From Eledone cirrhosa (lineage: Eukaryota), in NCBI GenBank assembly GCA_964016885.1, contig OZ024740.1, forward strand, positions 246,698,001 to 246,762,000: a DNA stretch of 64,000 nucleotides. The letters run 5' to 3'. The notes beneath the pieces were generated by a model, which saw nothing but the letters and a program-made list of their open reading frames with translations, was not told the origin of the DNA and made no database searches. The position numbers and the translations under genes are program-made. This document shows, piece by piece, positions 5,800 to 62,734 of this stretch (position 1 is its first letter; each line of letters starts with the position of its first letter).

Positions 5800-5869
<70 letters not shown>

Positions 5870-5910
5870 GATATTAACAAATGGAAACTATATTTATAAA
5901 ACCATATTTA

Positions 5911-5971
5911 TTTCATTATACATATTTCAAGGACACCAAGTTAAATTATGGTGTGCTTTCATCAGATAAAA
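5911..5971 (-). ncRNA. Minimal type-I hammerhead in an AT-rich PLE-type repeat; family also at 48380-48700
   Basis: Reverse complement reads ttttat-CTGATGA-aagcacacca...tggtgtcctt-GAAA-TATGTA-TA-atgaaa. Confidence 0.65.
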
Positions 5972-6699: not shown

Positions 6700-9600
6700 A
6701 CCACCACCACCACTTCCACAACCACTACCTCCACCACCACCACCTCCACCACCACGACTACTATCACCACTACCACCACCACCACCACCACCACGAACAC
6801 CACGAACACCACCAACATCACCACCACTACCACCACCACCACTACTATCACCACTACCATCACCACCACCACTACTATCACCACTACCATCACCACCACC
6901 ACTACTATCACTACAACCACCACCACCACTACTACTATCACCACCACCACCACTACTATGACCACTACCACCACCACCACCACTAGTATCACCACAACCA
7001 CCACCACCACTACTATCACCACTACCACCTCCACCACCACAACGAACACCACGAACACCACCAACATCACCACCACCACCACCACCACTACTATCACCAC
7101 TACCATCACCACCACCACTACTATCACTACAACCACCACCACCACTACTACTATCACCACCACCACCACTACTATCACCACTACCACCACCACCACTACT
7201 ATCACCACAACCACCACCACCACTACTATCACCACAACCACCACCACCAATACTATCACTACTACCACCACCACCACTACTATCACCACTACCACCACCA
7301 CTACTACTATCACCACTACCACCACCACCACTACTATCACCACTACCACCACCACCACTACTATCACCACTACCACCTCCACCACCACTACTATCACTAC
7401 CGGCACCACCACCACCACCACCACCAACCAGCACCACCAATACTATCACCACCACCACTACTATCACCACTACCACAACCACCACTACTATCAACGCTAC
7501 CACCACCACCACTACTATCACCACTAGCACCACGACCACCACTACTGTCACCACCGCCACCACCAACCACCACCACCATCACCACCACCACCACCACCGC
7601 CACCACAACTATCACCACCACCACTACTATCACCACCGCCACCACCACCACCACCACCACCACCACCTCCACCAGGACTACTATCACCACTACCACCACC
7701 AACACCACCACCATCACCACCACCACCACCACTACTATCACCACAACCACCACCACCACTACTATCACCACTACAACCACCACCACCACCACCACTACTA
7801 TCACTACCGCCACCACCACCACCACCACCAACCACCACCACCACCAACCACAACCACCACCACCGCCACCACAACCACCATCACCACCACTACTATCACC
7901 ACTACCACTACTATCACTACTACCACCACCACCACTACTATCACCACAACCACCACCACCACTACTATCACTACTGCCACCACCACCACTACTATCACCA
8001 CTCCCACCACCACTACTACTATCACCACTACCACCACCACCACTACTATCACCACAACCACCACCACCACTACTATCACCACTACCACCAACACCACCAC
8101 TACTATCACTACCGCCCCCCACCACCACCCACACCAGCAACCACACCACCATCACCGCCACCACTACTATCACCACTACCACCACCACCACTACCACCAA
8201 CACCACCACTACTATCACTAGCGCCCCCGCCCCCCACCGCCACCCACACCAGCAACCACACCACCATCACCACCACCACCGCCACCACTACTATCAGCAC
8301 TACCACCACCACCACCACCACCACCACGAACACCACGAACACCACCAACATCACCACCACCACTACTATCACCACTACCTCCACCACCACCACTACTATC
8401 ACCACTACCATCACCACCACTACTATCACCACCACCACCACCACCACCACTACTATCACCACTACCACCACCACCACTAGTATCACCACAACCACCACCA
8501 CCACCACCACTACTATCACCACCACCACCAACACCACCACTACTATCACCACTACCACCACCACTACTACTATCACCACAACCACCACCACCACTACTAT
8601 CACTACAACCACCACCACCACTACTATCACTACAACCACCACCACCACTACTATCACTACTACCACCACCACCACCACTACTATCACCACTACCACCACC
8701 ACTAATACTATCACCACTACCACCACCACCACTACTATCACCACTACCACCACCACCACTACTATCACCACCACCACTACTATCACCACAACCACCACCA
8801 CCACTACTATCACTACTACCACCACCACCCCTACTATCACCACTACCACCACGACCACCACTACTATCACCACCACCACCGCCACCAGAACTATCACCAC
8901 TACCACCACCACTACTATCACCACCGCCACCACCACCACCACCACCACCACCACCATGACTACTATCACCACTACCACCACCACCACCACCACCACCACC
9001 ACCACGACTACTATCACCACTACCACCACCAACACCACCACCATCACCACCACCACCACCACTACTATCACCACCACCACTACTATCACCACTACCACCA
9101 CCACCAGTACTATCCTCACTACCACCACCACCAGTACTATCAACACTACCACCACCACCACTACTATCACCACAACCACCACCACGACTACTATCACCAC
9201 TACCACCACCAACACCACCACCATCACCACTACCACCACCACTACTATCACCACCACCACTACTATCACCACTACCACCACCACCACTAATATCACCCCA
9301 ACCACCACCACCACTACTATCACCACTACCACCACCACCAGTACTATCCTCACTACCACCACCACCAGTACTATCAACACTACCACCACCACCACTACTA
9401 TCACCACAACCACCACCACCACTACTATCACCACTACCACCACCACCACTATTATCACCACCAGCGCCACCACTACTATCACCACAACCACCACCACCAC
9501 TACTATCACCACAACCACCACCACCAATACTATCACTACTACCACCACCACCACTACTATCACCACTACCACCACCACTACTACTATCACCACAACCACC

Positions 9601-10822
9601 ACCACCACTACTATCACCACAACCACCACCACCAATACTATCACCACTACCACCACCACCACTACTATCACTACAACCACCACCACCACTACTATCACCA
9701 CAACCACCACCACCACTACTATCACTACAACCACCACCACCACTACTATCACCACAACCACCACTACCACTACTATCACCACAACCACCACCACCACTAC
9801 TACTATCACTACCACCACCACCACTACTATCACTACAACCACCACCACCACTACTATCACCACAACCACCACCACCACTACTATCACCACTACCACCACC
9901 ACCACTATTATCACCACCAGCGCCACCACTACTATCACCACAACCACCACCACCACTACTATCACCACAACCACCACCACCAATACTATCACTACTACCA
10001 CCACCACCACTACTATCACCACTACCACCACCACTACTACTATCACCACAACCACCACCACCACTACTATCACCACAACCACCACCACCAATACTATCAC
10101 CACAACCACCACCACCACTACTATCACTACAACCACCACCACCAATACTATCACTACTACCACCACCACCACTACTATCACTACAACCACCACCACCACT
10201 ACTATCACCACAACCACCACCACCACTACTATCACTACAACCACCACCACCACTACTATCACTACAACCACCACCACCACTACTATCACCACAACCACCA
10301 CCACCACTACTATCACCACCACCACCACCACCAATACTATCACCACAACCACCACCACCACTACTATCAACACTACCACCACCACCAATACTATCACTAC
10401 TACCACCAACACCACTACTATCACCACTACCACCACCACCACTACTATCACCATTACCACCACCACCACTACTATCACCACTACCACCTCCACCACCACT
10501 ACTATCACTACCGGCACCACCACCACCACCACCACCAACCACCACCACCATCACCACCACCACCACCTTCGTCGCCACCACCACCACCGCCACCACAACC
10601 ACCATCACCACCACTACTATCACCACTACCACCACCACCACCACTACTATCACCACCGCCACCACCACCACCACCACCATCACCATTACTATCACCATTA
10701 CTATCACCACCACCACCACCACCACCACCACCACCACCACCACCACCACCACCACCATCACCACCATCACCACCACCATCACCACCATCATCACCACCAC
10801 CACCACCACCGCCACCGCCACC
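6700..10822. repeat. About 4.1-kb (ACC)n-derived compound minisatellite with a dominant 27-bp unit
   Basis: Unit of the form accaccaccaccactactatcacyacm. It reads as poly-T(8)I on +, and V(8)I or GGGGSGDSS on -. Rare variant blocks such as acgaacaccacgaacaccaccaacatc recur. Confidence 0.95.
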
Positions 10823-11855: not shown

Positions 11856-12116
11856 ATATTAAAATACAAATATTAATAAAATAGATGTTCTTTTGATCAA
11901 TTAAATTTTATTATTTTATTATACATATTTCAGAGGTACCCTGAGATGTTAAATGGTTAAGATTTAATCTACCTTGATTAAATCTTAACCATTTAACATC
12001 TCAGGGTATGTCATGTATCATTATATTTTGTCTGATGAGGACGTGTACCTCTGAAATATGTATAATAAAATTTAATTGATCAAAAGAACATCTATTTTAT
12101 TAATATTTGTATTTTA

Positions 12117-28875: not shown

Positions 28876-30577
28876 TTTCTTTATTGGCCACAAGGGCTGA
28901 CATCAAGAAAAACCTTACAGACGGCACAGGACGGTACAGAACGGAACGATATGGGTTTTGTGCGCGTAAATATTTTTATTATTTATATAAGAAAAGAAAA
29001 AAAAAGGACATAAAACATATATATATAAACAATAAAAATGAAAATTGAAACAATGAAAAATTCCCCAATAGAGGGGGGGGGGGACCTCCGAGGGTTACTC
29101 GTGGCGAAAACCACACAAAAGACCACGGCCACTCTGACCACCAAGGCAAGCGCCCTCTCTCAATTTTTCCATCTCTCAAACTACAGACGTATATTCAAAG
29201 TGGTCCCGTTCACTCGGACCATTCTCGCTACATTCACCCACCTTTCAACAAACTTGCTAGAAAGCAGCACTTGCCTCTCCACCCTCATTTTCCTCTTCAA
29301 GTGAAACTTGAAAAAGTTAATTAGGGATTCGCCGAAGAGGAAAGTGTTTGTCTTTAACCCTTTTAACCTTGTCCACCACACAATCTCTTTCGCCATGGGC
29401 ACCAGGCAGATGAAAACCACCTGCCCTTCCTCCTCGAGGGAAGACGGCGAGACCATCTGCACAATGGACTCAGTCGACAACCTGATCAGTCCCACACGCG
29501 ACAGCAACTGTTCGACATAGCTCCACAAGTCAGCAATGCTCGGGCACTGAACGAGTGCGTGCACAACGGTTTCGTCGCTATGCGTGCATCTCGGACAGGC
29601 TCGGCTGACGGCACTTCCGAGCCTGTAGAGCTTATCTCCAACCGGCAGCGCTCCCCAGTAGCACTGTCAGGCCAGGGATTTTTGGAAGTTATCCATAGGC
29701 CCCGGGCTGAAAGTTCTCCGGAAGAGAGCAAACAGCTGATCTTCTTCGACGCCCAGGATCTCTCCGAGAATGTCGTCGCTCTTCCCCTCCACTAGTCCTC
29801 TATAGAACGCCGAGGTGGATGTTCCACCGATACTGGTGCCAAACTGGGAGAGGGCAGTGAGCGCCTGGAGACATTCCAGTTTCCAAGCGCTATTCCTCGG
29901 TCTTTTTCTGACCCAGGACTGCAGCTCCGTCAAGGAGACGAGCTGTGGGAAAACGTGCCTGGCGAACGGCGACCACACCCGTTCACCATCAAGGAAGCAC
30001 CAGAGATGTCGCAGCCTCAGCGCATATTTGCGCATCATCAGCCATGGCATGCCCAGTCCTCCACGCAGCGGGTGTTGACAGCAGATAGATCGGCTGACCA
30101 TGGGAGGGCGTTCCTTCCACAAAAAGCGGAAGAGGAGGCGCTCCATTTTGGTGAGAGTTGGGCTGGAGCAAGCGACGACGGTGAGGCGATAGCAGATGAC
30201 GGATGCGATGTACGCATTCGCCACCTCCGCCCGGCCTTTCAGGGACAGCTTCCTCTCAGCCCATTTCTGGGTGAGGGAGGCCACCCTGCTCGACACCTCG
30301 TTCCAGTTTTTCTCCATCTGGAGGTCCGGTCCGAACCAGACCCCGAGCAATTTAACCGGTCCGTCCGTCCAATGCCCCACGACGCTGTCGGACGGCACGG
30401 ACTTACCTCTCCAGGTGCCGAACTGCAAGCCCACCGACTTTTCCTGGTTTATCTTTGCTCCTGTCACCTCCTCGTATTCCTTGAGAGCGGTGCCGAGCAT
30501 CTGGACGTGTCTGGTGCACGACACCACCACGGAGACGTCGTCAGCGTAAGCCGACTCGGATTTCCCGCATCCTAGTT
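28874..30577 (-). mobile_element. 5'-truncated Tx1-like LINE (from YADD to the 3' end)
   Basis: SAYADD, INQEKS, KLLGVWF, LSLKGRAEVANAYIAS, GGLGMP and a zf-RVT-like C-terminus; 3' end aataaagaaatc followed by (ATT)n. Confidence 0.9.
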
Positions 30578-30586
30578 AATAATAAT

Positions 30587-30770
30587 TGTTTCTACATTTG
30601 GCACAAGGCCAGCAAATACCCAGTGCATTACTGGTACTTTATTTTATCGACCCCGTAAGGATGAAAGGAAAAGTTAACCTCGGCGGGATTTGAACTCAGA
30701 ATGGAAAGGGCTGTAACTCTATGCGTCAAAGCATGGCGTCCGACCCTCTATCGATACTGCCATTCCACCT
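30587..30770 (-). mobile_element. SINE, main family, between two Tx1-like LINEs
   Basis: Full SINE body with short (AAT)n on both sides. Confidence 0.85.
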
Positions 30771-30779
30771 AATAATAAT

Positions 30780-33700
30780 GCTTTCTTTATTAACCACAAG
30801 TGTTTACATAAAGTAGACATTAAGGACAGTACAGGACAATACAGGACGGTACAAAAGGGCATTTCTGCGTGTAAAAAAACAAAAAAAACAGAGGATATAA
30901 TAATAGAACAATGAAAAAATTCCCCAATAGGGGGGAGACTTCCGAGGGACATTCGTGAAGAAAGCCCATTAAAAAGCCACAGTGAACCTGACCACCAGGG
31001 CAAGTGCCCTCTCCCAGTTTTCAACCTTTAATTTACAGACACATACTCAGAGTAGGCCATTCACTAGGGCCATTCTTGCCTCTCTCACCCATCTTTCAAC
31101 AAAATGCTGGGAAGAGAGCACTTCCCTCTCTACCCTGATTTTCCTTTTCAAATGAAATTTGAAAAAGTTAATCAGGGCATCACCGAAGAGGTAAGTGCTC
31201 GTCTTCAGCCCTTTCAAACGTGTCCACCATACTATCTCTTTCGCCATGGCCACCAGACAGATAAAAACTGCCTGCCCTTCCCGGATAAAGGAAGAGGGAG
31301 GGGCAATCCTCACGATGGACTCAGCTGATAGCTGGATCCGTCCTACACGCGACAGCAGGTGTTCGACATAAACCCACAAGTCAGCAATGCTCGGGCACTG
31401 GACGTGTGCGTGCAGGAGGGTTTTGTCGCCCTGCGCGCATCTCAGACATGCCCGGCTGACGGCACCTCCATGCCTGTAGAGTTTATCCCGAACTGGCAAA
31501 GCTCCTCGGTAGCACTGCCAGGCCAGAGATTTCTGGAAGTTGTCCATAGGCCCCGGCCCGAAAGTTCTTCCGAAGAGATTGGCTAGTTGATTTTCGTCAA
31601 CGCCTAGAGTTTCCCCAAGTACGTCGTCGCTCTTCCCCTCCACTAATCCTCTATAGAACGCCAATGTGGAGTTTCCACCGATCACATTGCCCGATTGGTC
31701 GAGGGCTGTGAGCGCCTGAAGACATTCCAGTCTCCAAGCGCTCCCTCTCGGTCTTCGCTTGACCCAGGACTGCAGCTCCGTCAAGGAGACGAGCTGAGGA
31801 AAGACGCGTCTAGCAAACGGCGACCACACCTGAGCACCGTTGAGGAAGAGGTGGAGATGTCGTAGCCTGAGCGCGTGTCTGCGCATTATCAGCCACGGCA
31901 TGCCCAGCCCTCCACGTAGCGGGTGTTGACAGCAGATGGACCGCCTGACCATCGGAGCGCGTCGCTTCCACAAAAAGCTAAAGAGCTAACGCTCCAGCGC
32001 AGTCAGGCGGGGCTTAGGACAAGGTACGACGGTCAGGCGGTAGTAGATGACGGATGCGATGTACGCATTCGCCACCTCAGCTCGACCTTTCAGGGATAGC
32101 TTCCTCTCCGCCCATTTCTGGGCGGAGCGGAAGCCACCCTGCTTGTCACCTCGTCCCAGTTTTTGTCCGTCTGGAGGTCCGGACCGAACCAGACCCCTAG
32201 CAATTTAACTGGTCCGTCCGTCCAGCGCCCGACGACTCTGTTGGACCTGCCTCTCCAGGTGCCGAGCTGCAGGCCCACTGACTTTTCCTGGTTGATCATT
32301 GCTCCTGTCACCGCTTCGTATTCTCTTAGTGTAGTGCCGATCGCCTCGATATGTTTGGCGTTCGACACCACTACGGTGACATCGTCCGCATATGCTGACA
32401 CGGATCTTCCGCATCCTAGTTCGCTCGTGACCCCCTCAACGTCTCCAGTTTGTGCAGTAATGGCTCAATACGTACAAGAGGGACGAGAGGGGACATCCTT
32501 GGCGGACCGAGCGCATAATGTTGAACGGTTCCGAAAGGTGACCGTTCACTCTCACCACAGAGCAGATGTCGCTGTGCATGGCAGCGATCCAGCCTCCGAA
32601 GACGGGCCCAAATCCAGCTGCCCTCAGGACTGCCGCTAGGTAACGATGGTCGACCCTATCGAAAGCTTTCGACTGATCTAAATTGATCAAGCACCCACCC
32701 GTTCCAGGTTCCCTAGCTACCCTCTCTACTATGTATCGCATGAGGTGGAGGTTGTCGTGGATGGATCTGTCGGGAATGATGCATGTCTGCGCCTCTCCCT
32801 CCAGACCACCAACGACAAGCGCCAACCTCTTTGCTAGCACCTTGGCCAAAATATTGAACTCTGTGTTTAGCAGTTATGGGCCTAAAATTATCTATGTTAT
32901 CCCCCTGGTTCGGATTCTTTCTCAGCAGCGCCACAGCTCCTCGGCTCACAGAGCTGCGAATTCTCCCTTTCTCTTGCCAGTTACAGTAGACGTCCGCCAA
33001 GAGGCCTCCGAACAAGTCTGGCATCTGTACGTAAAGTTCATAGGGCAGACCATCCAAACCAGGCGATTTACCCCTTGTGCAGCCAGTCATTGCCTCCCGT
33101 ACTTCAGCGGCTGTTATCGGCTTTTTGCAACACTCCGCCTAAGTGGCCGAGAGCCGCGGCAGTCCGTCGAGGTAGACACTAAAGTCCATCCCTCGATCGG
33201 TCCGCCGCTGCCCCCGAACAGCTGTGCGAAGTGTCGCTGAAAAGCTTCACACATTTGCCCGGGATCGAGTAGCATGCGCCCGTCGTGGTCCACCAAAGAC
33301 CGGATCGTGGATTTGTTGCCACGACGCGCCTCCGCCACTCGGGCCCATTGAACGGCTTTCGTCCCCTCATGTCTGAGAGCACGCACCCTAGCTCTGACAA
33401 CGCAGCCTTCGTGCTTTGCATTGAAGAATTGGTCAAGGGCCAATTTCGCCGCAAGTACGTCGATCGCGATGTCTTTGCTAAGCGCCACGTCTAATTTTCT
33501 AACTAGTTCTTCCTCTGCTCTATTTTTCTCTATTGCTAAAGCCTTACTAAACCTAATGGACTCTATTCTAATCGCTCTTTTCAGAGCAAACCACCACTTG
33601 TTGACAATGGCCCCCGTCAACGCCCGCTTAACTAGTTCGCTAATCCGGTCTCTGTAGGCCTTGCGCGCTGGTAAGGACGCGTTTAGCTTCCAGTAGCCAG

Positions 33701-36638
33701 CTCCTCGTCTATGAAGCCTGTCTAAGTCAAGCACACAGGTCACGAATTTGTGGTCCGTGTAGCTGACTATCTTGAATTGTGGACAGCCTATGCTAGACCT
33801 ATCTATTTACCTACAAAATACTCTATCTAGATATGATCTGGATGACCCTATGCGATTTGTCCACATTGGCACATTCGGGAAATCCAATCGGTAACTGTCA
33901 GACAGTTCAAAACTCCTGAGCAGGTTGGTGAGGCTCTTGTACCCTCCTCCCCTATCCGCTAATCCCACACAGTCCCAGCGTGCATCTAAGATCCCGTTCC
34001 AGTCGCCCACTAACACTAAAAAGAGGGACGTTCCAAGAAAGGTCTCCAGACGCCGGAAGAAATCGGGCCGCCCTGCTCCTGTCGGGGCAAAGACGGCTAC
34101 TAGCCTGAAAGCTTGCCCATCTCCGCTGGTCACGTCCAGCACCACCAACTTACCCTCTGGGTCCAGGAAGATGGCCCGTTTGGCGAGATCCAAACCTCTC
34201 CAAAAAAGCACAGCAACTCCTCCCCCCGATCCAAGACGGCTGGGAGATGCGTACACATCGTAGCCGCCGAAGATCGGTGCGAAGGCCCGTGCTTCGGAAA
34301 TTCTTGTCTCGCTGATAGCCACTGCATCTATGTTCAGTGACCTGAGGTCGTTGAGCAGGTGGCCCTGCTTCTATGACGACCCCAAGCCAGGCGCATTTAT
34401 GCTGCCTATTCTGAGTGAGGTCATGTTGAAATGGAGTGGAAAAGATGGGAAAAACCACTTACCTTACTTCTCGTAGAGGAAGGATGGTTTCTCCATCCTT
34501 TTCACTGCATCTGGCCTCCTCCGGAAGGATGTCCTTATAAATCCTCCTGGAGAGTGCTTGTCGGAACTCTCCGATGTCTTTGGGGAATTTTTGTTTTAGT
34601 GTCGTGTACGTTTTCTGTGTGATGCGAGTGATTTGTATGTGTGGAGGTGGTGTGAACTTTTGGGTTGTTGTGTAGTCTTTTTCTGTGATGCTGGTGTAGT
34701 GTTGGATGTAGTGTAATAATTGGTTGTTGTTCAAATTTATTGCTGTGTAGTGTGTATCGTTTTGGTTGTTTTGTTTTGTTTGCATTTGTTGTGGGTTTGT
34801 TTCTGTTTCGCTTTTTGGTAACTTTTGCGGTGTTGGTGATGGTGGTGTTGGGGTTAATGATGGTGATGGTGTTGGTGTTGGTGGTGATGGGGTTGGTGAT
34901 GCTGGTGTGGATGGTGGCATAGCTGTCCTAACTTTTTTGTTTGATAGTTTATTTGTTTCCCTCTGTATTTTGTTTTTGGAGGGAGAAGGAAGGGGATGTT
35001 TTCTTTTTTGGTTTCTTTTTCTTTTTTTCTTTTTTTCTGATACCATTTCCCACTCCTCGTCGTCACAATGTGTCTCCAGTTGCGATAGGTCGGGGAGTGG
35101 AAAATCCTCCACAGGCGTTGGTTTTGGTTGTGGCGTGGTGGATGGTGTAGGCGCTGGTGCTAGTTCTGGCGCGTTGGGTGGTGGTGGTGTTGGTTTTGCT
35201 ACTGTTGCTGGGGTTGTTGCTGTTACAGTTGCTTCTGTTGTTGCTGCTACAGTTGTTGCTGCCATTTCTGCTGCTGGTGGTGTTGATGGTTGAGTCACTG
35301 GGGTGGGTAAGAGAGGTGGCCTCAACCTTTTAGCCTGAGGGGAGAAAGCCCTTAGGTGGGTTCCTTCACCACAAATGACACAGCTAGGCCTTCTGCCCTC
35401 GACGATTACGGTGAGGTGACTGCCGTCAGTGAGGTCTATTACCTCTGGGATCTCCTCAATGCTTTTTTGGTCCGCTTGGATCAGGAGCTCCATCCCAGAT
35501 CCGGACCAGTTCTCCTGCTTTTCTTTCGCTATTTCGATTATCTTGGTGTTGGCTTCGATGCCGGCGAGGACGGCAGCCATTAGCCAGCGAATTTCGATGG
35601 CCGGTGGAACGTTGGTCACCCTGATCTTCACGAGTCTCTGGCCACAACAGCTTGGGACGAGTGTGGAGTCGTCATTTCTTAATGGGTCCATGGATTGTTC
35701 TCTGGCCTCCTGTGGTGTTTCAAAGAACACGTTCACGGTTCCATATTTCTGCCCACGTCTGATGTGGGTTTTTTTTTGCCCACACATGTCCCAAAGCTTT
35801 TTGGATTTTGGACTCGGATGCCCGTTCCACTCGGCGCGATTTTATATTAATCGTCCGATAAGACACGATGCATAGGCGCCGATTCTCCATTTTATTAGGT
35901 GTGTGTGTGTGTGCGGGGGTGGGGGGGGGGGGGGTGACCCTGTACCCATCTTTCTTTACCATTTTTTTTGGCTTCTTCTAATTCCTCCTGAGTTACCTGG
36001 TATGCTTCGCAATGTTTCGCTACTCTGGCAAAAGACAGGGTTTTCTTATTCTCATTGTTGCTGTTGTTGTTATCGTTATTTTTGTTATTGTTAATTTTAG
36101 TTTCAGTTGTGGTGGTGGTGGCGTCAGTGGTGTTCGGTGTGGAAGAGTTCATTTTGGCTGAATTCGTTTCGATATCACGAGATAATATATTTTTTTTTTG
36201 TTTCTGTTGTTGCTGTGGTGGTGGTGGGGGTGGCGGCTTCAACACCTGCAGTCATTGGTAATGGTGGGAAATGATTGTCTGCCTGAGACAAATTAAAAAT
36301 ATTGCTACTGCTTATATTTTTAGTGTTGGCAAACGTAGTAATATTTACAATGGTGGTGTCGGTGTGAGGTGTTAGTTTGTGAGGAAGGCTCTCAGTTACT
36401 GGGTTCAGCTGTGAGTCGGCCATGATTTTTCAAAGAATTTTTTTTTGTTTGATAATTATAAAAGTTTAAATTTTGGGGTCAAGGCCCCAATCTTTTTGAG
36501 TGTCCTTTTCAGAAATCAATGTATGTGCACTTATATACAGTTAACAATAAAAATTTTCCATAAATGGCAATTTTAAACAACTGAAAATAACAAATCTTTG
36601 CGGAGCTCACGATAATACGATTTACTACGTAGGTCGCC
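30780..36638 (-). mobile_element. Apparently full-length (~5.9 kb) Tx1-clade LINE, ORF1 plus ORF2 (APE-RT-zf), disrupted
   Basis: ORF1 from 36423 with knuckle CVICGEGTHLRAF(S)P; ORF2 from about 34424 with APE motifs SINA.GL, AISET, GDWNG, SYLDRVF, TDHK and GYWKLN; RT motifs GKSPGLDGLPYE, LDQSKAFDRVDH, SVRQGCPLS, YADD; (ATT)n at both ends. Confidence 0.92.
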
Positions 36639-43817: not shown

Positions 43818-43860
43818 TGTGACATCAGTCCTGGAACTTTTCTGACCCACCTCGTATATA

Positions 43861-43937
<77 letters not shown>

Positions 43938-44200
43938 TTTCAAACCCAAACTTCACACTAAGAGTTTTCTCCTTCAAAGTAATCACCCTGGAGTATGTAA
44001 CTGCAATCTTAGCTCTCTGCAACGATCAAACTTTTTTTTTCATAATTTTATATACATGACCTCTGTTTCAGGTCGTCAAGCAATGAGCACAGAGCAACGA
44101 ACAAACTTGAAAACTCCGTCAGAAGCACTGGGATTGCTGCAGCAAGTGTATGGAGATGAGACGATGTCACGCTCACGTGTTTTTAGTGGTGCAAGAGGTT
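43818..44200 (+). mobile_element. Mariner remnants: TIR-like end (43818-43856, minus) and transposase N-terminal HTH
   Basis: TA-cgaggtgggtcagaaaagttcc; MSTEQRTNLKTPSEALGLLQQVYGDETMSRSRVF. Confidence 0.75.
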
Positions 44201-44544
44201 GCACCAAAGAAGGACAACGTTTTATAGTAAAACACAATTTGACATGCGCATTAGAAAATCTAATATATGTATTAACTTGCTCAGGTTGTCGAGAACAATA
44301 CATAGGCCAGACCAAAAACAGCCTCCGCCAACGCATGACTGTCCATAGATCCCAAATTAAAATACGGGAATACAGGAAAATACCACTGAGTGAACACATT
44401 GATACCTGTGCCGCCCAAAATCATCCCAACTTTAGAATCTTTCCCCTCTACAAATTTAAAGATAATGCCACCCACACCCAGCGCATCAGCAAGGAATCTC
44501 ACTTTATTAACAAATACAGACCCCGTCTAAACACTTCTCCCTAA
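44201..44544 (+). mobile_element. Penelope-like GIY-YIG endonuclease, 3' part of the ORF
   Basis: NLTCALENLIYVLTCSGCREQYIGQTKNSLRQRMTVHRSQI...EH...RISKESHFINKYRPRLN; CxxC between the GIY and YIG equivalents. Confidence 0.88.
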
Positions 44545-47240: not shown

Positions 47241-47339
47241 ACATACATGCATGCATACATAGATAGATATATATATACATACAAGGCTGAAGGCTGGTGG
47301 AGGTGCAGCTGAAGGAAGCTTCAACTCGGAAGGACCGGT

Positions 47340-48300
47340 CATTGGGACGGAAAAGGGATTCCTTCACCTGTACCTCTACCAGCCTTGTCTATGGGCTCCG
47401 TTGTACTCTGTACGGAGTTATCTACTTTGGTCAGACTGGCCGTCGTCTGGCCGATACATTTGCTGAACACCTTCGGGTCATCCGGGTCAGCAACCCGAAT
47501 CAGATCTCCCGACAATTTCGGACCACCGGCAACTCCACACGCCACAACAGTGTCTTCGGGCTCGCACATTGTGGCGGATCACCTGACTCACGCTGTCGGA
47601 GAGAACAGCAACATATTTTCTCCTTACAAACATTTCTACCCCTAACCTTAATGTGCCACCCATCTTCCTTTAATCTGCTCTGTCACATATACTCTCTAAC
47701 ACACACAAAACATAGTCCAATGACACACACGCTTACACACAAATCACAATTAGATACTTTACATGCATACAATATAAACTATGACATACATACACACGTT
47801 AACATTTAATCATACACTCACACACACAAATCCACACTTCTCACAGACACTACCAGATACCATACACACACACATAATAACTTCAACGCACATATACAGT
47901 ACACATATTCAAACTTACATTCACTCACACATACAAGCCCACTACCACATACCACATGGATATAGGCATAACACGCACAAACATTGATACTTTACACAAT
48001 ATACTTTAAATAGACATACACGTTTAAACGTATACATACACCCACACATAATATCGGCACTAATACGCACACACTTCACCTTGCGTTTCAACTCGTTACC
48101 AAGACTACCTAACGGTTTGTCTTGTTTACACTCTTTTTCCTTACTTGGACTATCCTTATTTCTGTTTCTCCTTTGCGATCATGTCTCTAATTTGAACTCC
48201 TGAAGAAGGGCTAAAGCCCGAAGCGTCGAACTTTCTTTCCTCTCTTTTATATAAAGCGTGAAACTGATAAGACTTTTTGTCCCTCTGTTTTTTTCTCTGT
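47340..48300 (+). mobile_element. Penelope-like 3' remnant: GIY-YIG fragment, CA-rich tail and degenerate hammerhead (48197-48230)
   Basis: SFTCTSTSLVYGLRCTLYGVIYFGQTGRRLADTFAEHLRVIR; CTGAAGA-a-gggc-taaa-gccc-GAAG-CG-TC. Confidence 0.78.
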
Positions 48301-48379
48301 GTGTATATATATATATATATATATATACATGTAAAGTTATATTTAAAATTGTTGGGTTACAACTAGTAAATATTTATAA

Positions 48380-48697
48380 CTGATATATAAAAATAATATA
48401 TAAAACTGTTTATATTGTATTTTGTCTGATGAAGGCATAGCATATTGTTAATATGATATCCCCGAAATATATATAATGAAATAAATATGGTTTTATAAAT
48501 ATAGTTTTCCATTTATTTAATATTGTATATATATATATATATCAATGATATTAATAAATGGAAACTATATTTATAAAACCATATTTATTGTATCATATAT
48601 ATTTCAAGAGTACCAACATTTTGGTACTCTTGAAATATATATGATAAAATAAATATGGTTTTATAAATATAGTTTCCATTTATTAATATCATTGATA
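48380..48697. repeat. AT-rich PLE-type repeat with a hammerhead (48420-48481 +) plus a fold-back palindrome (48540-48697)
   Basis: tttgt-CTGATGA-aggcatagcatattgttaatatgatatcccc-GAAA-TATATA-TA-atgaaa; palindrome arms of about 77 bp around catt. Confidence 0.75.
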
Positions 48698-48780
48698 TTA
48701 TACTCCAGAATAACTGTAGAGTGCTTCGAATCTGTTATAAATAAATTTGTTGTATAACCAATTAATTAAAGATCTCTTTG

Positions 48781-48870
<90 letters not shown>

Positions 48871-49455
48871 TATGTACACGTACATACATATATGTATACA
48901 GACGTACAGTAGTATGTATACATATATACATACATCCATACATATATATATGTACGTATGGATTCACCGAACATTTATTATAATGCTCGGTGTGTTTGTA
49001 AACAAACATCCCGTATTAAGCCGTAGTGTCTAGCAACCATCGTTACTCGTTTGTTCAACACTGACAAAGGAACGCTGTACTAGTTTCAAGCTTATTAGCT
49101 ATCGTCAGTAACGTATACCTTCCTGCCAGATTGTTGAACGTATTACCTTATGCATATTAACGGCTGAGTAGCCCAATTTGCATATCGAGTGGGTTAATCG
49201 GCCGGGTGCACCGGAAACGATTAACGGAAAAAATGAAACGAAATTTCATTTCCAACTCTTAGTACGGCTGTTACTTAAATATAAGTATGTACACGTACTT
49301 ACATAAGAGTAGGAAATGAAATTTCGTTTCATTTTTTCCGTTTATCATTTTCGGTGCACCCGGCCGATTAACCCACTCGATATGCAAATTGAGCTACTCA
49401 GCCGTTAATATGCATAAGGTAAGTATATACGTTCAACAATCTGGCAGGAAGGTAT

Positions 49456-49498
49456 ACGTTGCTGACGATAGCTAATAAGCTTGAAACTAGTACAGCGT
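49456..49498 (+). ncRNA. Minimal type-I hammerhead ribozyme
   Basis: acgttg-CTGACGA-t-agct-aata-agct-t-GAAA-CTAG-TA-cagcgt: 6-bp stem I, palindromic stem III ACTAGT, GUA triplet. Confidence 0.8.
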
Positions 49499-49875
49499 TC
49501 CTTTGTCAGTGTTGAACAAACGAGCAACGATGGTTGCTAGACACTACGGCTTAATACGGGATGTTTGTTTACAAACACACCGAGCATTATAGTAAATGTT
49601 CGGTGAATCCATACGTACATATATATATGTGTGCATGTATGTATATATGTATACATACTACTGTACGTCTGTATACATATATGTATGTACGTGTACATAC
49701 TTATATTTAAGTAACAACCGTACTAAGAGCGGGAAATGAAATTTCGTTTCATTTTTTCCGTTTATCGTTTTCGGTGCACCCGGGCGATTAACCCACTCGA
49801 TATGCAAATTGGGCTACTCAGCCGTTAATATGCATAAGGTAAGTATATACGTTCAACAATCTGGCAGGAAGGTAT

Positions 49876-49918
49876 ACGTTGCTGACGATAGCTAATAAGC
49901 TTGAAACTAGTACAGCGT
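49876..49918 (+). ncRNA. Minimal type-I hammerhead ribozyme, second tandem copy
   Basis: Identical to 49456-49498, 420 bp downstream; a third copy lies at 49072-49114 on the minus strand. Confidence 0.8.
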
Positions 49919-50229
49919 TCCTTTGTCAGTGTTGAACAAACGAGCAACGATGGTTGCTAGACACTACGGCTTAATATGGGATGTTTGTTTACAAACACAC
50001 CGAGCATTATAATAAATGTTCGGTGAATCCATACGTACATATATATATGTGTGCATGTATGTATATATGTATACATACTACTGTACGTCTGTATACATAT
50101 ATCTATGTACGTGTACATACTTATATTTAAGTAACAGCCGTACTAAGAGTGGGAAATGAAATTTCGTTTCATTTTTTCCGTTTATATATATATATATATT
50201 AATATATATATATATATTAATATATATAT

Positions 50230-54864: not shown

Positions 54865-56855
54865 TTGTCTAGGAAGTCTATGTCGATCTCACAGATCACA
54901 AATTTGTGGTCTGTGTAGTCGACTATTTTAAATTGTGGACAACTTATACTAGCCTTATCTAGTTCTCTGCAGAATACCCTATCGAGATACGATCTGGATG
55001 ACCCGACGCGGTTTGTCCATGTCCACATTGGCACATTCGAGTGATCCAGTTGATACCTGTCAGATAATTCAAAACGTCTGAGCAGGTTGATGAGGCTCTT
55101 TCACGCTCCTCGCCTATCCACTAGCCCCACACAATCCCAGCGTGCATCCAAGATCCCGTTCCAGTCGCCCACTAACACTAAAGGGCGGAAACGTTTCAAG
55201 AAAGGTCTCTAGACATCTGAAGAAATGTGGCCGTCCTGCCTCAGATGGGGCGTAGACGGCTACTAGCCTGAAAGCATTGCCTTCGCTGCCGGTCACGTCC
55301 AGCACCACCGACTTACCTTCTGCGTCCAGGAAGATGGCCCGTATGGCGAGATCCAAGCCTCTCCGAAAAAGGACGGCAACCCCTCCCCCAGATCCTGGAC
55401 GTCTGGGAGATGCGTATACATCGTAGCCACCGAAGATCGGTGCGAAGGCTCGTGCTTCGGAGATTCTGGTCTCGCTGATGGCCACCACATCTATGTTTAG
55501 TGATCTGAGGTCGTTGAGAAGGTGACCCTGCTTCCAAGATGACCTCAGGCCACGTGCATTTATACTGCCTATTCTAAGTACGGCCATGTTGGATGAGAAA
55601 CGGTGGTGAAGGGACAGTAGAACCGTCCCTTTGGCTGGTCATGGGGGTTCCAAGAGGATGTCAGTGTATATCCTCTTGGTAACCGACGCTCTGAAGTCTC
55701 CAACTGCGTAAGAGAATTTTTGTTTTAAAAGTTTGTACTGTTCTATTTTGATATCAATGATGCTTATGTTTGTCGGGAGAGTTCTTGGTGTTGGTGGGGT
55801 GTAGTATTTTTTCCTGTGATGTCTGTGTGCTGCTTTATATATTGTATGAGTTCTTTATTTGCCATGTTTATGGCTGTGTACATTTTTGGGGGGAGGGGTG
55901 ATTTTGTTCCTGTTTTCTTCTTGTTGCATTGGGTGTGTGTGTTTTGTTGTGTTTCCGCTGTTGGTGTTTTTGGTGATGCTGGTGGTGGTGTGGTTGTTGT
56001 TGGGGGGTGGTGCTTGTGGTGGTGATGGTGGTGGTGTTGCTGCAAGTTTCCTTGCTGCCTTTACCCCTCTTTGTTTGCCTTCGCTTTTGGAAGGTGTAGC
56101 TAAGGGTTTTTTTGTTTTTTTTTTCGTGGCAGACCGTTTGCTACTTCTCTCCCGCCTCAGACTCCATGTCGGATTCCGTGGCGTCTGGGAGGGGTATGTG
56201 CCCCACGGCTGTTGGTGGTGGTAGTGGAGCTCTCTTCGGCAATTTTGTTGCTGGTGCAGCTACTTCAAATGAAGCTACGTGTGTTGCCGCCTCTGATGCT
56301 GCTGCTTTAGTTGTCCGTGGCTTTGGTACGGGTGCCACGGATGTTGCCCTCCTACTCACCGTGGAAGGGGCTTCTGCGTTTGTTGCCTGCCCTGCTCTTG
56401 GTAGCAGCGGGCCAGGTATTGGAAGGAGAGGGGCCTTCTTCTTCGCTGTCTTCTGCGGGAAAAAGGCCCTGAGGTGACCCATTGACCCACAGAGATAACA
56501 TTTGTGCGCCTTCTTTCCACGCTGATAGGGAGTTGGAATCCTTCCTCGAGGTCTATGATATCGAGGATAGCGTCGATACATTCCTGGTCAGTTTGTATAA
56601 GCATTTGCATACCTATACCTGACCAGTTCTCTCTCCCTATTTTTTCTACTTGCAGCCTGGTCGTCCTGTCCTCGATTCCAGACGCAGGGACAGACGCGGC
56701 CAGCCAAGGTATGGGCACGTCGGGTGGGACCTGGGTCACTTTGATCCTCACAATTTTCTGCCCGCAGTAGGAGGGAACCAAGACTATCTCCTCACTTTTT
56801 AGGGTTTCCAAAGAATGAGACTTCGCTTCTTGGGGGTGGCGAAAAGTACGTCTAC
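54865..56855 (-). mobile_element. Tx1-like LINE 5'/internal piece: ORF1 plus APE domain, lacking RT
   Basis: ORF1 LVPSYCGQKIVRIKVTQVPP and CYLCGSMGHLRAFFP; ORF2 start MAVLRIGSINARGL...AISETR...SYLDRVF...YTDHK. Confidence 0.88.
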
Positions 56856-61625: not shown

Positions 61626-61808
61626 GTTTCTACTTTTGGCACAAGGCCAGCAATTATCCCAGTACATTACTGGTACTTTATTTTATCGACCCCGTAAGGA
61701 TGAAAGGCAAAGTTAACCTCGGCGGGAATTGAACTCAGATCGTAAAGGGACGTAACTATGCTGGAAAGCATGTCCGACCCTCTGCCGATACTGCCAATTC
61801 CCCGCCCT
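61626..61808 (-). mobile_element. SINE, main family, inside an (AAT)n tract
   Basis: Full SINE body with AAT repeats on both sides. Confidence 0.88.
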
Positions 61809-61831
61809 TAATAATAATAATAAGAAGAAGA

Positions 61832-62734
61832 AGAAGGAGGGGACAATAGGCCAGGGGATGTCCAAGGAGGAAATAATATCAAGGAGAAAGAGCAGCCTTC
61901 AGGAAAAATCCCTTCATAGTACCTTCTTTGAGAAAACTGAATTTAGAGATCCACAGACATGGAACTGGTTGAAAAGAGGAGACCTTCAAAAGGCTACAGA
62001 AGGAATGTTAATGGCTGCGCAGGAGCAGGCCCTCAAAACGAAGTGGTTGAAACACCATATTTACAAGGAGGAGGCTAGCCCACTGTGCAGGATCTGTGGA
62101 GAGAGAGAGGAGACTGTGGCTCACATTGTATCCGAGTGTAAACACCTAGCCCAGACTCATTATAAGGGCTGGAGACATGATGTGATGGGCAGGGTGATCC
62201 ACTGGCACCTATGCAAAGTAAACAATTTACCACATTCTGAGAAGTGGTATGAGCATAAGCCAGAGGCGGTGATAGAAAACGATCAGGTGAAGGTGCTATG
62301 GGATTTTAGGATACAGACGGACAAGAAACTTGAACACAATAGACCTGACCTGGTGGTTGTGGACAAAGAAAACAGATCGTGCCTGATTGTGGATGTGGCT
62401 TGCCCATTCGACACGAGAGTGCAAGAGAAGGAGAGGGAGAAAATTAACCGATACCAGGACTTAAAGTGGGAGGTAAAAAGGATTTGGAACTGCAATGAAG
62501 TCAAAGTGATCCCGATTGTCATAGGCGCACTAGGGACTATCTCAAAAAGTTTCCATGGATGGTTAAAGAAAATTGGCCCCTTCACGATTTTTGGAACGCT
62601 TCAAAAGGCATGCTTGCTGGGAACAGCAAGAACCCTCCGATACGTCCTGAATATCTGAGGCTGCAGGTAGTGGCTTGATATTCATTTCAACAAACTTTCC
62701 AGTTAACTAACATCAATGACTGAGACTCAAAGAG
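61832..62734 (+). mobile_element. R4/Dong-like family A 3' fragment with an uninterrupted CCHC plus RLE frame
   Basis: ORF 61858-62658 (266 aa) is intact: CRICGEREETVAHIVSEC, NRPDLVVVD...IVDVACP; tail (AAT)n to about 62841. Confidence 0.92.

What the first reader, a model, noticed from the sequence alone, without database searches (positions are those of the whole stretch)
48865..50184. ORF-less 420-bp hammerhead array (one inverted plus two direct copies): retrozyme-like unit
Seen: three copies of a compact hammerhead with an intact core (CTGACGA...GAAA-CTAG-TA) at 49072-49114 (-), 49456-49498 (+) and 49876-49918 (+), very low divergence, no recognisable coding sequence, flanked by (TA)n. 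Known: PLE pLTRs and animal non-LTR retrozymes form tandem units with dimer-active minimal hammerheads. Inference: a young non-autonomous ribozyme-processed element, probably PLE-mobilised, able to yield a 420-nt linear or circular RNA. The inverted copy could also give long dsRNA.
Basis: partly seen in the sequence, partly recalled or inferred. Interest (0 to 1): 0.75.

Follow-up and report, generated by a model that had tools for sequence, protein, structure and literature searches.

The report
Hammerhead retrozyme array, Penelope-style insertion
This 1.3-kb block without genes is one copy of a very abundant 420-base tandem repeat that carries a hammerhead-ribozyme motif and sits as two head-to-head arms inside a (TA)n microsatellite, a layout that was likely made by the enzymes of a Penelope-like retrotransposon; it is an ordinary member of the known animal "retrozymes", not a new kind of element.

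Summary
Window 48861-50185 is a (-) arm of 1.06 units joined head-to-head to a (+) arm of 2.1 units of a 420-nt repeat, with (TA)n on both sides. It has three hammerhead motifs and no ORF over 75 aa.

The motif is a type I hammerhead. Its helix III is a 2-bp stem within the palindrome ACUAGU, so it is predicted to work only as a dimer. Helices I and II covary across three sister families in the same genome. Rfam does not call it at gathering score. The inverted copy has an A.C mismatch in helix I.

The genome holds about 32,000 such motifs (controls 10 and 3). In 16 of 16 complete insertions the arms face away from each other, one ending at unit position 217 and the other at 273. That leaves a 56-nt tail on one side only. 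Of 40 outer junctions, 37 abut (TA)n. None of 43 loci has a PLE ORF.

Head-to-head tandem arms, a one-sided tail and a microsatellite target are the published hallmarks of Penelope-like element (PLE) integration. An autonomous (TA)n-targeting PLE with an open 828-aa frame exists in this genome and has a similar 3' end.

Verdict: a non-LTR retrozyme, likely PLE-mobilised, and a new member of a known kind. RNA cleavage, circles and dsRNA remain untested.

The parts
48783..48868 (.). Left (TA)n microsatellite, the target flank
   Evidence: Sequence and TRF. 37 of 40 outer junctions of the family abut (TA)>=4, against 3.6% of random window positions.
48861..49305 (-). Inverted arm of 1.06 units (unit 188 through 420 to 217). 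Its 3' end (unit 217, ..ACTTATAT) faces outward to the left and merges with (TA)n.
   Evidence: the repeat finder I1, I3 and I4; BLAST map of L001. It has 11 differences from the family majority, including a 5-nt deletion.
49072..49114 (-). Hammerhead motif of the inverted arm. The core is intact, but helix I has an A.C mismatch next to the core. Predicted cleavage lies between 49078 and 49077.
49304..50185 (+). Direct arm of 2.1 units (unit 232-420, 1-420, 1-273). Its 3' end (unit 273, ..TTTTTTCCGTTTAT) faces outward to the right.
   Evidence: TRF period 420, 97% matches; BLAST map. The pieces have 3, 5 and 3 differences from the majority, and variant A157G is shared by both arms.
49456..49498 (+). 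Type I hammerhead. Helix I is ACGUUG/CAGCGU, core CUGACGA, helix II U.U plus AGCU/AGCU with loop AAUA, then GAAA, helix III AC/GU with loop UA (palindrome ACUAGU), site GUA. Predicted cleavage after 49492.
   Evidence: Descriptor hit with 0 of 200 shuffles; weak Rfam HH9 alignment; covariation.
49876..49918 (+). Second type I hammerhead of the + arm, identical to the first. Predicted cleavage after 49912.
49431..49517 (+). Extended helix I. After an internal loop (UAU/U), about 20 further pairs (GUUCAACA..GGAAGG with CCUUUGUCAGUGUUGAAC) close the rest of the unit.
   Evidence: MFE fold of the 420-nt unit: -142.2 kcal/mol, z -6.75. Sister families pair here with different sequences.
50130..50185 (+). 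The 56-nt 'tail' (unit 218-273), present on only one arm of each insertion. It holds a stem-loop (about 50148-50182) and the end motif TTCATTTTTTCCGTTTAT.
   Evidence: 16 of 16 complete composites pair a 217 end with a 273 end. The end motif resembles the 3' end of PLE-3.
50183..50229 (.). Right (TA)n microsatellite, the target flank

Best explanation
The block is a single insertion of an ORF-less 420-nt tandem-repeat element with a type I hammerhead motif (an animal non-LTR retrozyme), and it was likely copied into a (TA)n microsatellite by the reverse transcriptase-endonuclease of a Penelope-like element acting in trans.

**Shown directly**
- The family is ORF-less and very abundant.
- The hammerhead fold is kept by compensatory changes in sister families.
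- Every complete insertion has two arms with their 3' ends outward. One arm ends at unit 217 and the other at 273.
- The inner 5' ends are variable.
- The insertions sit in (TA)n.
- In the youngest array, the units of both arms are nearly identical.

**Inferred**
1. Tandem units are transcribed.
2. Two hammerheads 420 nt apart pair through the ACUAGU palindrome (a double hammerhead) and would cut after GUA, releasing 420-nt monomers.
3. By analogy with published retrozymes, host tRNA ligase would circularise the monomers.
4. A (TA)n-targeting PLE nicks both strands of the microsatellite.
5. Each nick primes reverse transcription of a circular or multimeric template from a defined 3' site, giving two 5'-truncated tandem cDNAs that are joined head-to-head.

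The best candidate driver is the family called PLE-3 here, which has an open 828-aa frame with RT and GIY-YIG regions and min-hammerhead pLTRs.
For: **Family size and non-autonomy**
- The unit search gave 1419 first-look candidates at 94-98% identity.
- 15,904 motifs match CTGACGA..GAAACTAGTM (control 3). 16,076 more match with A, G or T at core position 7 (control 10).
- tblastn with two PLE proteins found nothing in 43 family loci. Neighbouring ORFs are LINE-type.

**Hammerhead fold**
- The descriptor hit is absent from 200 shuffles.
- In an 8-sequence alignment of families A, A2 and V2, 94.4% of cells are paired, against 33-43% when partners are slid. Six of 18 pairs change on both sides. 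The covariation score is 0.369 against 0.172, reached by 0 of 500 shuffles.
- The double-hammerhead dimer is within 0.2 kcal/mol of the dimer MFE.
- The + strand unit folds at z -6.75, the - strand at z -4.77.

**Architecture**
- 16 of 16 complete composites pair a 217 end with a 273 end.
- 37 of 40 outer junctions abut (TA)n, against a 3.6% background.
- In the first 100 rows, I counted by eye 28 opposite-strand neighbour pairs under 1 kb in (-,+) order and none in (+,-) order.

**Agreement with published PLE features**
- Passages of PMC8557442 describe partial tandems, an adjacent inverted 5'-truncated copy, a 30-40-bp tail at one end only, and a (TA)n bias tentatively tied to a CX2-5CxxC linker.

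**Single template per insertion**
- Eight units in both arms of the C7 composite differ by 0-2 of 422 nt, yet by about 4.5% from other loci.

**Candidate driver**
- PLE-3 in L110 has an 828-aa open frame between two min-hammerheads 4.7 kb apart.
- Its 3' end ..TTCAAATTTTCCATTAT abuts (AT)n in 5 of 5 copies.
- It aligns to the RVT_1 + GIY-YIG PLE-1 protein at E 2e-82 and has a C-x4-C-x2-C linker.
- Its terminal 26 nt align best to unit 253-270, just before the 273 end.

**Literature**
- Animal non-LTR retrozymes and their proposed dependence on PLEs: PMC7229834 (passages) and preprint 10.64898/2026.07.22.740005 (abstract and Results).
Against: **On the hammerhead**
- Rfam gives no hammerhead at gathering score. 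Only a sub-threshold HH9 match appears, on an 86-nt piece.
- Family A has U.U where hammerheads usually have G10.1-C11.1. Family V2 has G-C.
- Helix III has a 2-nt loop and cannot form in a monomer.
- The isolated 51-nt motif folds no better than shuffles (z -0.17).
- Among 52 genomic copies the hammerhead is no more conserved than the rest of the unit (0.0318 against 0.0314 variable sites per position, rank 190 of 420). That is expected for dead copies but gives no support.

**On RNA processing**
- Inner 5' ends are not enriched at the cleavage site: about 3 of 32 lie within 10 nt, where 1.5 are expected. The DNA therefore carries no footprint of cleavage.

**On the PLE link**
- No autonomous PLE with this hammerhead type was found.
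- The PLE-3 link rests on shared (TA)n targeting and a T-rich 15-nt similarity that 34 of 1000 shuffles match somewhere.
- The tail is 56 nt here, against the 30-40 bp described for PLEs.

**On the single-template reading**
- Older arrays show within-array divergence as large as between-array divergence. Only a few young arrays speak to a single template.
Confidence: 0.8

Rival explanations
1. The block is an ordinary pseudo-LTR or 3' remnant of an autonomous Penelope-like element. The repeat would then be part of a coding PLE, not an independent non-autonomous family.
For: Two 5'-truncated PLE fragments lie 1.1-4.3 kb upstream on the same strand: a GIY-YIG ORF at 43846-44544 and an EN-like ORF at 47291-47809. 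PLE pLTRs are known to carry hammerheads (PMC4209133; first of four parts of the text read).
Against: - Both ends of the block lie in (TA)n, and other sequence separates it from those fragments.
- 0 of 43 family loci contain a PLE protein match.
- Full PLE-1 copies share no non-low-complexity similarity with the unit.
- The autonomous PLE-3 carries a different hammerhead: min-HHR GAAACGUC with helix II GGGC/GCCC.
Confidence: 0.05
2. The repeat is a satellite or minisatellite spread by DNA-level processes such as unequal crossing-over, segmental duplication or palindrome formation. The hammerhead would be a passive passenger.
For: - Some loci are long arrays of at least 10-14 units with higher-order structure (L069, L070, L023, L026, L027).
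- C4:351.9-352.3 Mb holds segmentally duplicated copies.
- Genomic copies show no extra conservation of the hammerhead.
Against: - The insertions are dispersed on at least 8 contigs.
- Their 3' termini are defined (217 or 273) while their inner ends vary, and they share a specific (TA)n target. These are marks of independent retrotransposition events.
- The hammerhead fold is kept by compensatory changes across families.
- Local array growth probably occurs as well, but it does not explain the dispersal.
Confidence: 0.07
3. The repeat is a SINE-like element mobilised by a microsatellite-targeting LINE, not by a PLE.
For: LINE fragments with Exo_endo_phos, RVT_1 and zf-RVT domains are common in the window and beside family loci. 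From recall only, some LINE clades target microsatellites.
Against: - The element has no poly(A) or LINE-like tail.
- The obligatory head-to-head double arm with a one-sided tail is described for PLEs, not LINEs (PMC8557442 passages).
- The one LINE ORF found next to an array (L100) is simply adjacent to it.
- The 3' end resembles that of PLE-3.
Confidence: 0.05
4. The block is a DNA transposon, such as a foldback element, a TA-targeting MITE or a Helitron, given its inverted arms and TA target.
For: The block has long inverted arms and TA-rich target sites. A stem-loop lies a few nt before the 273 end.
Against: - The two termini are not inverted copies of each other (217 against 273).
- Arm lengths, copy numbers and inner junctions differ at every locus. 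That does not fit cut-and-paste copies of one element.
- No transposase or Rep/helicase ORF was seen in the family loci (ORF list).
Confidence: 0.03

Closest known systems
Animal non-LTR retrozymes (Cervera & de la Pena 2020, PMC7229834; Li, Clavereau & Pollet 2026 preprint 10.64898/2026.07.22.740005)
   Same: - Tandem units of a few hundred bp (420 here; 150-450 bp described).
- One type I hammerhead per unit.
- No LTR, PBS, PPT or ORF.
- GC below 50% (0.381 here).
- Very high copy number.
- Proposed dependence on PLEs.
   Different: - Expression as linear or circular RNA and self-cleavage are not shown here.
- In the passages I read, these papers do not describe the head-to-head double-arm insertion, the one-sided tail or (TA)n targeting. 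In the preprint, 'tail', 'target site' and 'head-to-head' occur 0 times.
- The 2020 paper says most invertebrate retrozyme hammerheads cleave as monomers. This one looks dimer-dependent, like the amphibian ones.
Penelope-like elements and their pLTR min-hammerheads (PMC4209133; PMC8557442)
   Same: - Insertion architecture of partial tandems with an adjacent inverted 5'-truncated copy.
- An extension at one end only.
- Bias for the (TA)n microsatellite.
- A dimer-dependent hammerhead with a palindromic helix III.
   Different: - The element has no RT/EN ORF.
- Its hammerhead is the 'canonical metazoan type I' form (helix I 6 bp plus internal loop, helix II 4 bp, helix III 2 bp). It is not the helix-III-less min-HHR (GAAACGUC) carried by the autonomous PLE-3 of this genome.
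- The tail is 56 nt, against 30-40 bp.
Hammerhead satellites of newts, schistosomes and cave crickets (recalled; cited within PMC4209133 and PMC7229834)
   Same: [quoted passage not shown]
   Different: This comparison is from recall and cited text only, and no sequences were compared here. The present family is mainly dispersed as short composite insertions with defined termini, not as large satellite blocks.
Plant LTR retrozymes (PMC4918200)
   Same: Non-autonomous, hammerhead-bearing elements that propagate through self-cleaved, circularised RNA and borrow the machinery of an autonomous retroelement.
   Different: The plant elements have type III hammerheads in true LTRs, a PBS and PPT, 4-bp TSDs and Ty3/gypsy-type mobilisation. 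None of these is present here.

Membership tests
Animal non-LTR retrozyme | Short tandem DNA repeats of about 150-450 bp | tested here: met
   Period 420, 2.1 direct copies plus 1.06 inverted. Other loci hold 1 to at least 14 units.
Animal non-LTR retrozyme | A type I hammerhead in every unit | tested here: met
   The descriptor hit is absent from 200 shuffles. Helices I and II covary across three families. Rfam is only sub-threshold: HH9 at 19.7 bits against 52, and nothing at gathering score.
Animal non-LTR retrozyme | No LTRs, PBS or PPT, and no coding capacity | tested here: met
   No ATG ORF exceeds 75 aa, and all are low complexity. There was no PLE protein match in 43 loci. The unit repeats head-to-tail without terminal repeats. 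PBS and PPT were not searched for specifically.
Animal non-LTR retrozyme | Low GC content (below 50%) | tested here: met
   Unit GC is 0.381.
Animal non-LTR retrozyme | Transcribed and processed to unit-length linear and circular RNA | not testable with these tools
   No run on record as RNA was listed. The runs that were laid are contigs of unknown kind.
Animal non-LTR retrozyme | Hammerhead self-cleavage, as monomer or dimer | not testable with these tools
   There is only a thermodynamic prediction. The double-hammerhead dimer is at -31.6 kcal/mol against a dimer MFE of -31.8.
PLE-mobilised insertion | Partial tandem with an adjacent inverted 5'-truncated copy | tested here: met
   The window block and 15 further complete composites show it. 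In some searches neighbour pairs are in (-,+) order and 0 in (+,-) order.
PLE-mobilised insertion | A short extension (tail) at one end only | tested here: met
   16 of 16 composites pair a 217 end with a 273 end. The tail is 56 nt, against the 30-40 bp described.
PLE-mobilised insertion | Microsatellite target bias | tested here: met
   37 of 40 junctions abut (TA)>=4, against 3.6% of random positions.
PLE-mobilised insertion | An autonomous PLE with matching termini or hammerhead in the same genome | tested here: inconclusive
   PLE-3 targets (TA)n and has a similar 3'-terminal motif. Its hammerhead differs, and the similarity is short (34 of 1000 shuffles).
PLE pseudo-LTR (part of an autonomous element) | The repeat flanks an RT plus GIY-YIG ORF | tested here: not met
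   0 of 43 loci have a PLE ORF. Both ends of the window block lie in (TA)n.
Rfam hammerhead families (clan CL00010) | Score at or above the family's gathering threshold | tested here: not met
   The whole window gave 0 matches. The best result is HH9 at 19.7 bits against 52.

The most novel reading that the evidence does not exclude
The invariant pairing of a 217 end with a 273 end is one clue. The scattered, asymmetric inner junctions are another. The near-identity of all units in both arms of the youngest array is a third. Together they would be the genomic footprint of double target-primed, rolling-circle reverse transcription of a circular 420-nt retrozyme RNA by a (TA)n-targeting, Neptune-like PLE. 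That would be the first direct structural evidence for how animal retrozymes integrate, and it would give a defined RNA 3' signal (stem-loop plus UUUUCCGUUUAU) that the PLE enzyme recognises.
Probability: 0.35. Interest if true: 0.65.

Novelty: new member of a known kind. Interest (0 to 1): 0.42.

Why it matters
Animal retrozymes are known, and their dependence on Penelope-like elements has been argued from co-occurrence and from similarity to pLTRs. How they integrate has not been shown.

This genome offers a large and partly very young family: about 32,000 hammerhead motifs, including arrays whose units differ by 0-2 nt. Its insertions carry the structural signature of PLE integration in a very regular form. 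An apparently intact (TA)n-targeting PLE (open 828-aa frame) lies in the same genome.

That makes several questions testable:
- which 3' RNA signal the PLE enzyme uses;
- whether the template is circular;
- why one arm carries a tail.

The head-to-head arms would also fold into dsRNA of about 410 bp if they are transcribed through. This matters for small-RNA silencing of the family.

Tried and rejected
**Rfam**
- Gathering threshold on the whole window gave no match.
- E<=10 on 1.7 kb gave only sub-threshold miRNA-like hits on the TA/TG-rich hairpin, such as mir-297 at 55.6 bits against 90. I treat these as low-complexity noise.

**Sequencing runs**
- No RNA holder was listed.
- Contigs of four coded runs of unknown kind were laid. 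They show the family is abundant in organism A. Pieces 97-98% alike occur under two other organism codes (a 218-nt and a 533-nt contig). They give no information on RNA ends or circles. The second read-laying run was not used.

**Earlier findings**
- Nothing was on record for this genome or this sequence.

**Purifying selection on the hammerhead**
- Among 52 genomic copies there is none visible.

**Cleavage footprints**
- Arm 5' ends are not enriched at the cleavage site.

**Search for the autonomous partner**
- PLE-1 has 18,724 first-look candidates, many with 784-aa open frames. It shows no similarity to the unit outside low complexity, and my scanner found no hammerhead in it. Its 3' ends lie next to (TA)n(CA)n stretches that seem to be internal.
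- An ORF beside an A2 array (L097/L100) turned out to be a LINE RT.
- The window's PLE-2 fragment is an old copy, with its closest relative at 72% aa identity.
- A Helitron, foldback element or MITE was considered and rejected on termini and variable structure.
- Snap-back synthesis of the inverted arm was rejected because the arms are not symmetric about the junction.

**Tail and arm properties**
- Tail side against arm length: the longer arm ends at 273 in 7 composites and at 217 in 9. Tail side against strand: 8 and 8. There is no relation to either.
Full report
**1. What is in the sequence**

Window 48861-50185 consists of a (-) arm and a (+) arm.
- The (-) arm spans 48861-49305 (1.06 units).
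- It is joined head-to-head to the (+) arm at 49304-50185 (2.1 units; period 420, 97% matches).
- (TA)n lies on both sides, at 48783-48868 and 50183-50229.

The 31-nt string from CUGACGA to the GUA site occurs exactly three times. A strict type I hammerhead descriptor hits the two + copies and nothing else in 64 kb. It hits nothing in 200 dinucleotide shuffles.

The inverted copy keeps the core but has an A.C mismatch in the helix I pair next to it. It also has a 5-nt deletion and 11 differences from the family majority. The + pieces differ at 3, 5 and 3 positions.

No ATG ORF exceeds 75 aa, and all ORFs are low-complexity read-through.

**2. Is the hammerhead real?**

Anatomy of the motif:
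- Helix I is ACGUUG/CAGCGU. An internal loop (UAU/U) follows, then about 20 more pairs that close the rest of the unit.
- The core is CUGACGA.
- Helix II is U.U plus AGCU/AGCU with loop AAUA.
- GAAA follows.
- Helix III is only A-U and C-G around a 2-nt loop, inside the palindrome ACUAGU.
- The cleavage site is GUA.

This matches the 'canonical metazoan type I' layout described in PMC4209133 (first of four parts of the text read): helix I 6 bp, helix II 4 bp, helix III 1-2 bp with a small palindromic loop, active as dimers.

A 2-nt loop cannot close a hairpin, so the motif should depend on pairing with a second copy. A cofold of two 72-nt copies puts the double-hammerhead structure at -31.6 kcal/mol. 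The dimer MFE is -31.8, and two separate monomers give -28.4.

Rfam does not recognise the motif:
- no match at gathering score;
- no hammerhead at E<=10 on 1.7 kb;
- on an 86-nt piece, a full-length but weak Hammerhead_HH9 alignment at 19.7 bits against a gathering score of 52.

The isolated motif is no more stable than shuffles.

The strongest support comes from sister families found by pattern search in the same genome.
- Family A2 has helix I ACGGUG/CAUCGU.
- Family V2 has helix I AUAUUG/CAAUAU, helix II G-C plus AUGU/ACAU, and site GUC.

On an 8-sequence alignment:
- 94.4% of cells pair, against 33-43% when partners are slid;
- 6 of 18 pairs change on both sides;
- no shuffle of 500 reaches the covariation score (0.369 against 0.172).

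The sequences represent only three or four lineages, so this is good but not overwhelming evidence.

The whole + strand unit folds at -142.2 kcal/mol (z -6.75). The - strand folds at -117.6 (z -4.77).

**3. The family**

The window lies at G000:C1:246698001-246762000 of a 3.0-Gb assembly. The unit has 1419 first-look candidates, of which 40 were scored, at 94-98% identity on at least 8 contigs.

Pattern counts:
- 15,904 motifs with CUGACGA (control 3);
- 16,076 motifs with A, G or T at core position 7 (control 10).

That makes about 32,000 hammerheads of this helix III type.

Among 52 non-redundant copies the hammerhead is no better conserved than the rest of the unit. This is what dead-on-arrival copies would show.

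**4. Insertion architecture**

I mapped the unit on 43 loci. Unit position 1 is the first base after the cleavage site.

- **Arms and ends.** Every complete insertion (16 of 16, the window's included) consists of a (-) arm and a (+) arm with 3' ends outward. One arm ends at unit 217 (..ACATACTTATAT) and the other at 273 (..TTTTTTCCGTTTAT).
- **Tail side.** The tail side is unrelated to strand (8 against 8) or to arm length (7 against 9).
- **Inner ends.** They are scattered and not symmetric about the junction. Only about 3 of 32 lie within 10 nt of the cleavage site.
- **Target.** 37 of 40 outer junctions abut (TA)>=4, against 3.6% of random window positions.
- **Orientation genome-wide.** In the first 100 rows, I counted by eye 28 opposite-strand neighbour pairs closer than 1 kb in (-,+) order and none in (+,-) order.
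- **Non-autonomy.** No PLE protein match occurs in any of the 43 loci. Neighbouring ORFs are LINE-type.
- **Template.** In the youngest composite (C7:16611592-16615944), eight full units from both arms differ by 0-2 of 422 nt, while they differ by about 4.5% from other loci. Older arrays have diverged internally as much as between loci.
- **The window's copies.** They share one subfamily variant (A157G) across both arms and otherwise carry private changes of 1.1-2.5%. This fits one insertion event of moderate age.

**5. Comparison with what is known**

Passages of Craig et al. 2021 (PMC8557442) describe PLE insertions as:
- 5'-truncated partial tandems;
- often with an inverted 5'-truncated copy next to them;
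- with a 30-40-bp tail at one end only;
- with a microsatellite bias, (TA)n in Naiads. A CX2-5CxxC linker before the GIY-YIG domain is tentatively blamed for this bias in Neptune-type elements.

The family's architecture matches all four points. The tail is longer here, at 56 nt.

Cervera & de la Pena 2020 (PMC7229834; abstract and passages) define animal non-LTR retrozymes. [quoted passage not shown]

A 2026 preprint (10.64898/2026.07.22.740005; abstract and Results) argues from co-occurrence and pLTR similarity that they derive from PLEs. In that preprint 'tail', 'target site' and 'head-to-head' do not occur, and 'inverted' occurs only in a reference title. My two literature searches found no paper that describes this architecture for retrozymes. 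Supplements of the preprint were not available.

**6. Candidate driver**

The window holds two 5'-truncated PLE fragments:
- PLE-1 at 43846-44544, with a Pfam GIY-YIG match;
- PLE-2 at 47291-47809, followed by a decayed min-hammerhead at about 48200 and an end in (TA)n.

PLE-1 is hugely abundant: 18,724 first-look candidates, many with 784-aa open frames and RVT_1 plus GIY-YIG domains. It shares nothing with the unit, and I saw no hammerhead in it.

Relatives of PLE-2 (9,776 candidates) include PLE-3.
- In L110 it has an 828-aa open frame between two min-hammerheads (CUGAAGA AGGGCUUAUGCCC GAAACGUC) 4.7 kb apart.
- Its 3' end ..TTCAAATTTTCCATTAT abuts (AT)n in 5 of 5 copies.
- It aligns with PLE-1 over 756 aa (E 2e-82). 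It has a C-x4-C-x2-C linker and a GIY-YIG-type motif. Pfam gives only a weak RVT_1 hit.
- Its terminal 26 nt align best to unit 253-270, directly before the 273 end (TTCATATTTTCCATT against TTCATTTTTTCCGTT). 34 of 1000 shuffles score as well somewhere in the unit.

This is suggestive and no more.

**7. Mechanism**

Shown: the structure, the abundance, the covarying fold, the defined termini, the target and the single-template signature in young arrays.

Inferred:
1. The tandem units are transcribed.
2. The dimeric hammerheads cleave to 420-nt monomers, which are circularised.
3. A (TA)n-targeting PLE nicks both strands of the microsatellite.
4. Two independent target-primed reverse transcriptions run from the 3' signal over a circular or multimeric template.
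5. The two 5'-truncated cDNAs are joined.

Both arms read through the cleavage site, so the templates were uncleaved multimers or circles. DNA alone cannot tell which.

Why exactly one arm starts at 273 and the other at 217 is unexplained.

A transcript reading through 48861-49709 would fold into a near-perfect hairpin of about 410 bp (-704 kcal/mol). The dsRNA idea is therefore physically plausible but untested.

**8. Verdict**

The element is a typical non-LTR retrozyme and thus a new member of a known kind.

The added value is threefold: the very regular PLE-type insertion signature, the size of the superfamily, and a concrete candidate driver. No RNA evidence could be obtained.

Noticed in passing
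window 43846-44544 (+): A 5'-truncated copy of a hugely abundant PLE (PLE-1) with a Pfam GIY-YIG match. In the own genome it has 18,724 first-look candidates, many with intact 784-aa RT plus GIY-YIG frames and near-identical scores. This suggests a recently active family.
   Followed up: partly
window 47291-48296 (+): An old 5'-truncated PLE fragment (PLE-2). It has an EN-like ORF, then a decayed min-hammerhead (CUGAAGA AGGGCUAAAGCCC GAAG..) at about 48200, and its 3' end runs into (TA)n at about 48297. Intact relatives (PLE-3, e.g. L110 with an 828-aa ORF) carry GAAACGUC min-hammerheads in both pLTRs and also end in (TA)n.
   Followed up: partly
window 48350-48700; 5840-5970 (-); also L110, L066, L011 flanks: A second hammerhead-bearing tail family (B): CUGAUGA, a long helix II, GAAAUAU(G/A)UAUAAUGAAAUAAAUAUGGUUUUAUAAAUAUAGUUUCCAUUU.., ending about 60 nt after the motif in (TA)n. 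At 48464-48700 it occurs as inverted duplicates with 99% complementary arms.
   Followed up: partly
window 11905-12100 (+): A third hammerhead-like motif (family C: CUGAUGA GGACGUGUACCUCU GAAAUAUGUA..), about 65 nt before an (AT)n run. A roughly 100-nt palindrome precedes it.
   Followed up: no
window 6700-10822: A 4.1-kb (CCA)n-like minisatellite with periods 6, 27 and 81 and GC skew about -0.8. All six frames are open, so the long ORFs there are artefacts. Family B (5965, -) and family C (12032, +) hammerhead tails flank it in opposite orientation.
   Followed up: partly
window 49611-49701 and 50031-50121 (+), 48876-48959 (-): The TA/TG-rich segment of each unit forms a long hairpin that gives sub-threshold Rfam miRNA-precursor hits (mir-297 at 55.6 bits against a gathering score of 90). 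This is probably low-complexity noise, though it would be a Dicer-like substrate if the unit is transcribed.
   Followed up: no
L113:586 (-) and 685 (+): Head-to-head hammerhead-like motifs with a UUGAAAA core. This is the U3-A8 covariant core reported for some PLE hammerheads in PMC4209133.
   Followed up: no
window 29667-35841 (-), 55114-55638 (-), 61756-62658 (+): LINE fragments with Exo_endo_phos and zf-RVT Pfam matches. Similar LINE ORFs lie beside several retrozyme arrays without being linked to them.
   Followed up: partly
coded runs X4 (organism B) and X6 (organism C): Contigs 97-98% identical to the unit occur in runs labelled with two other organism codes (218 nt with 4 differences; 363 nt aligned with 10 differences). 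The family may be shared by related taxa.
   Followed up: no
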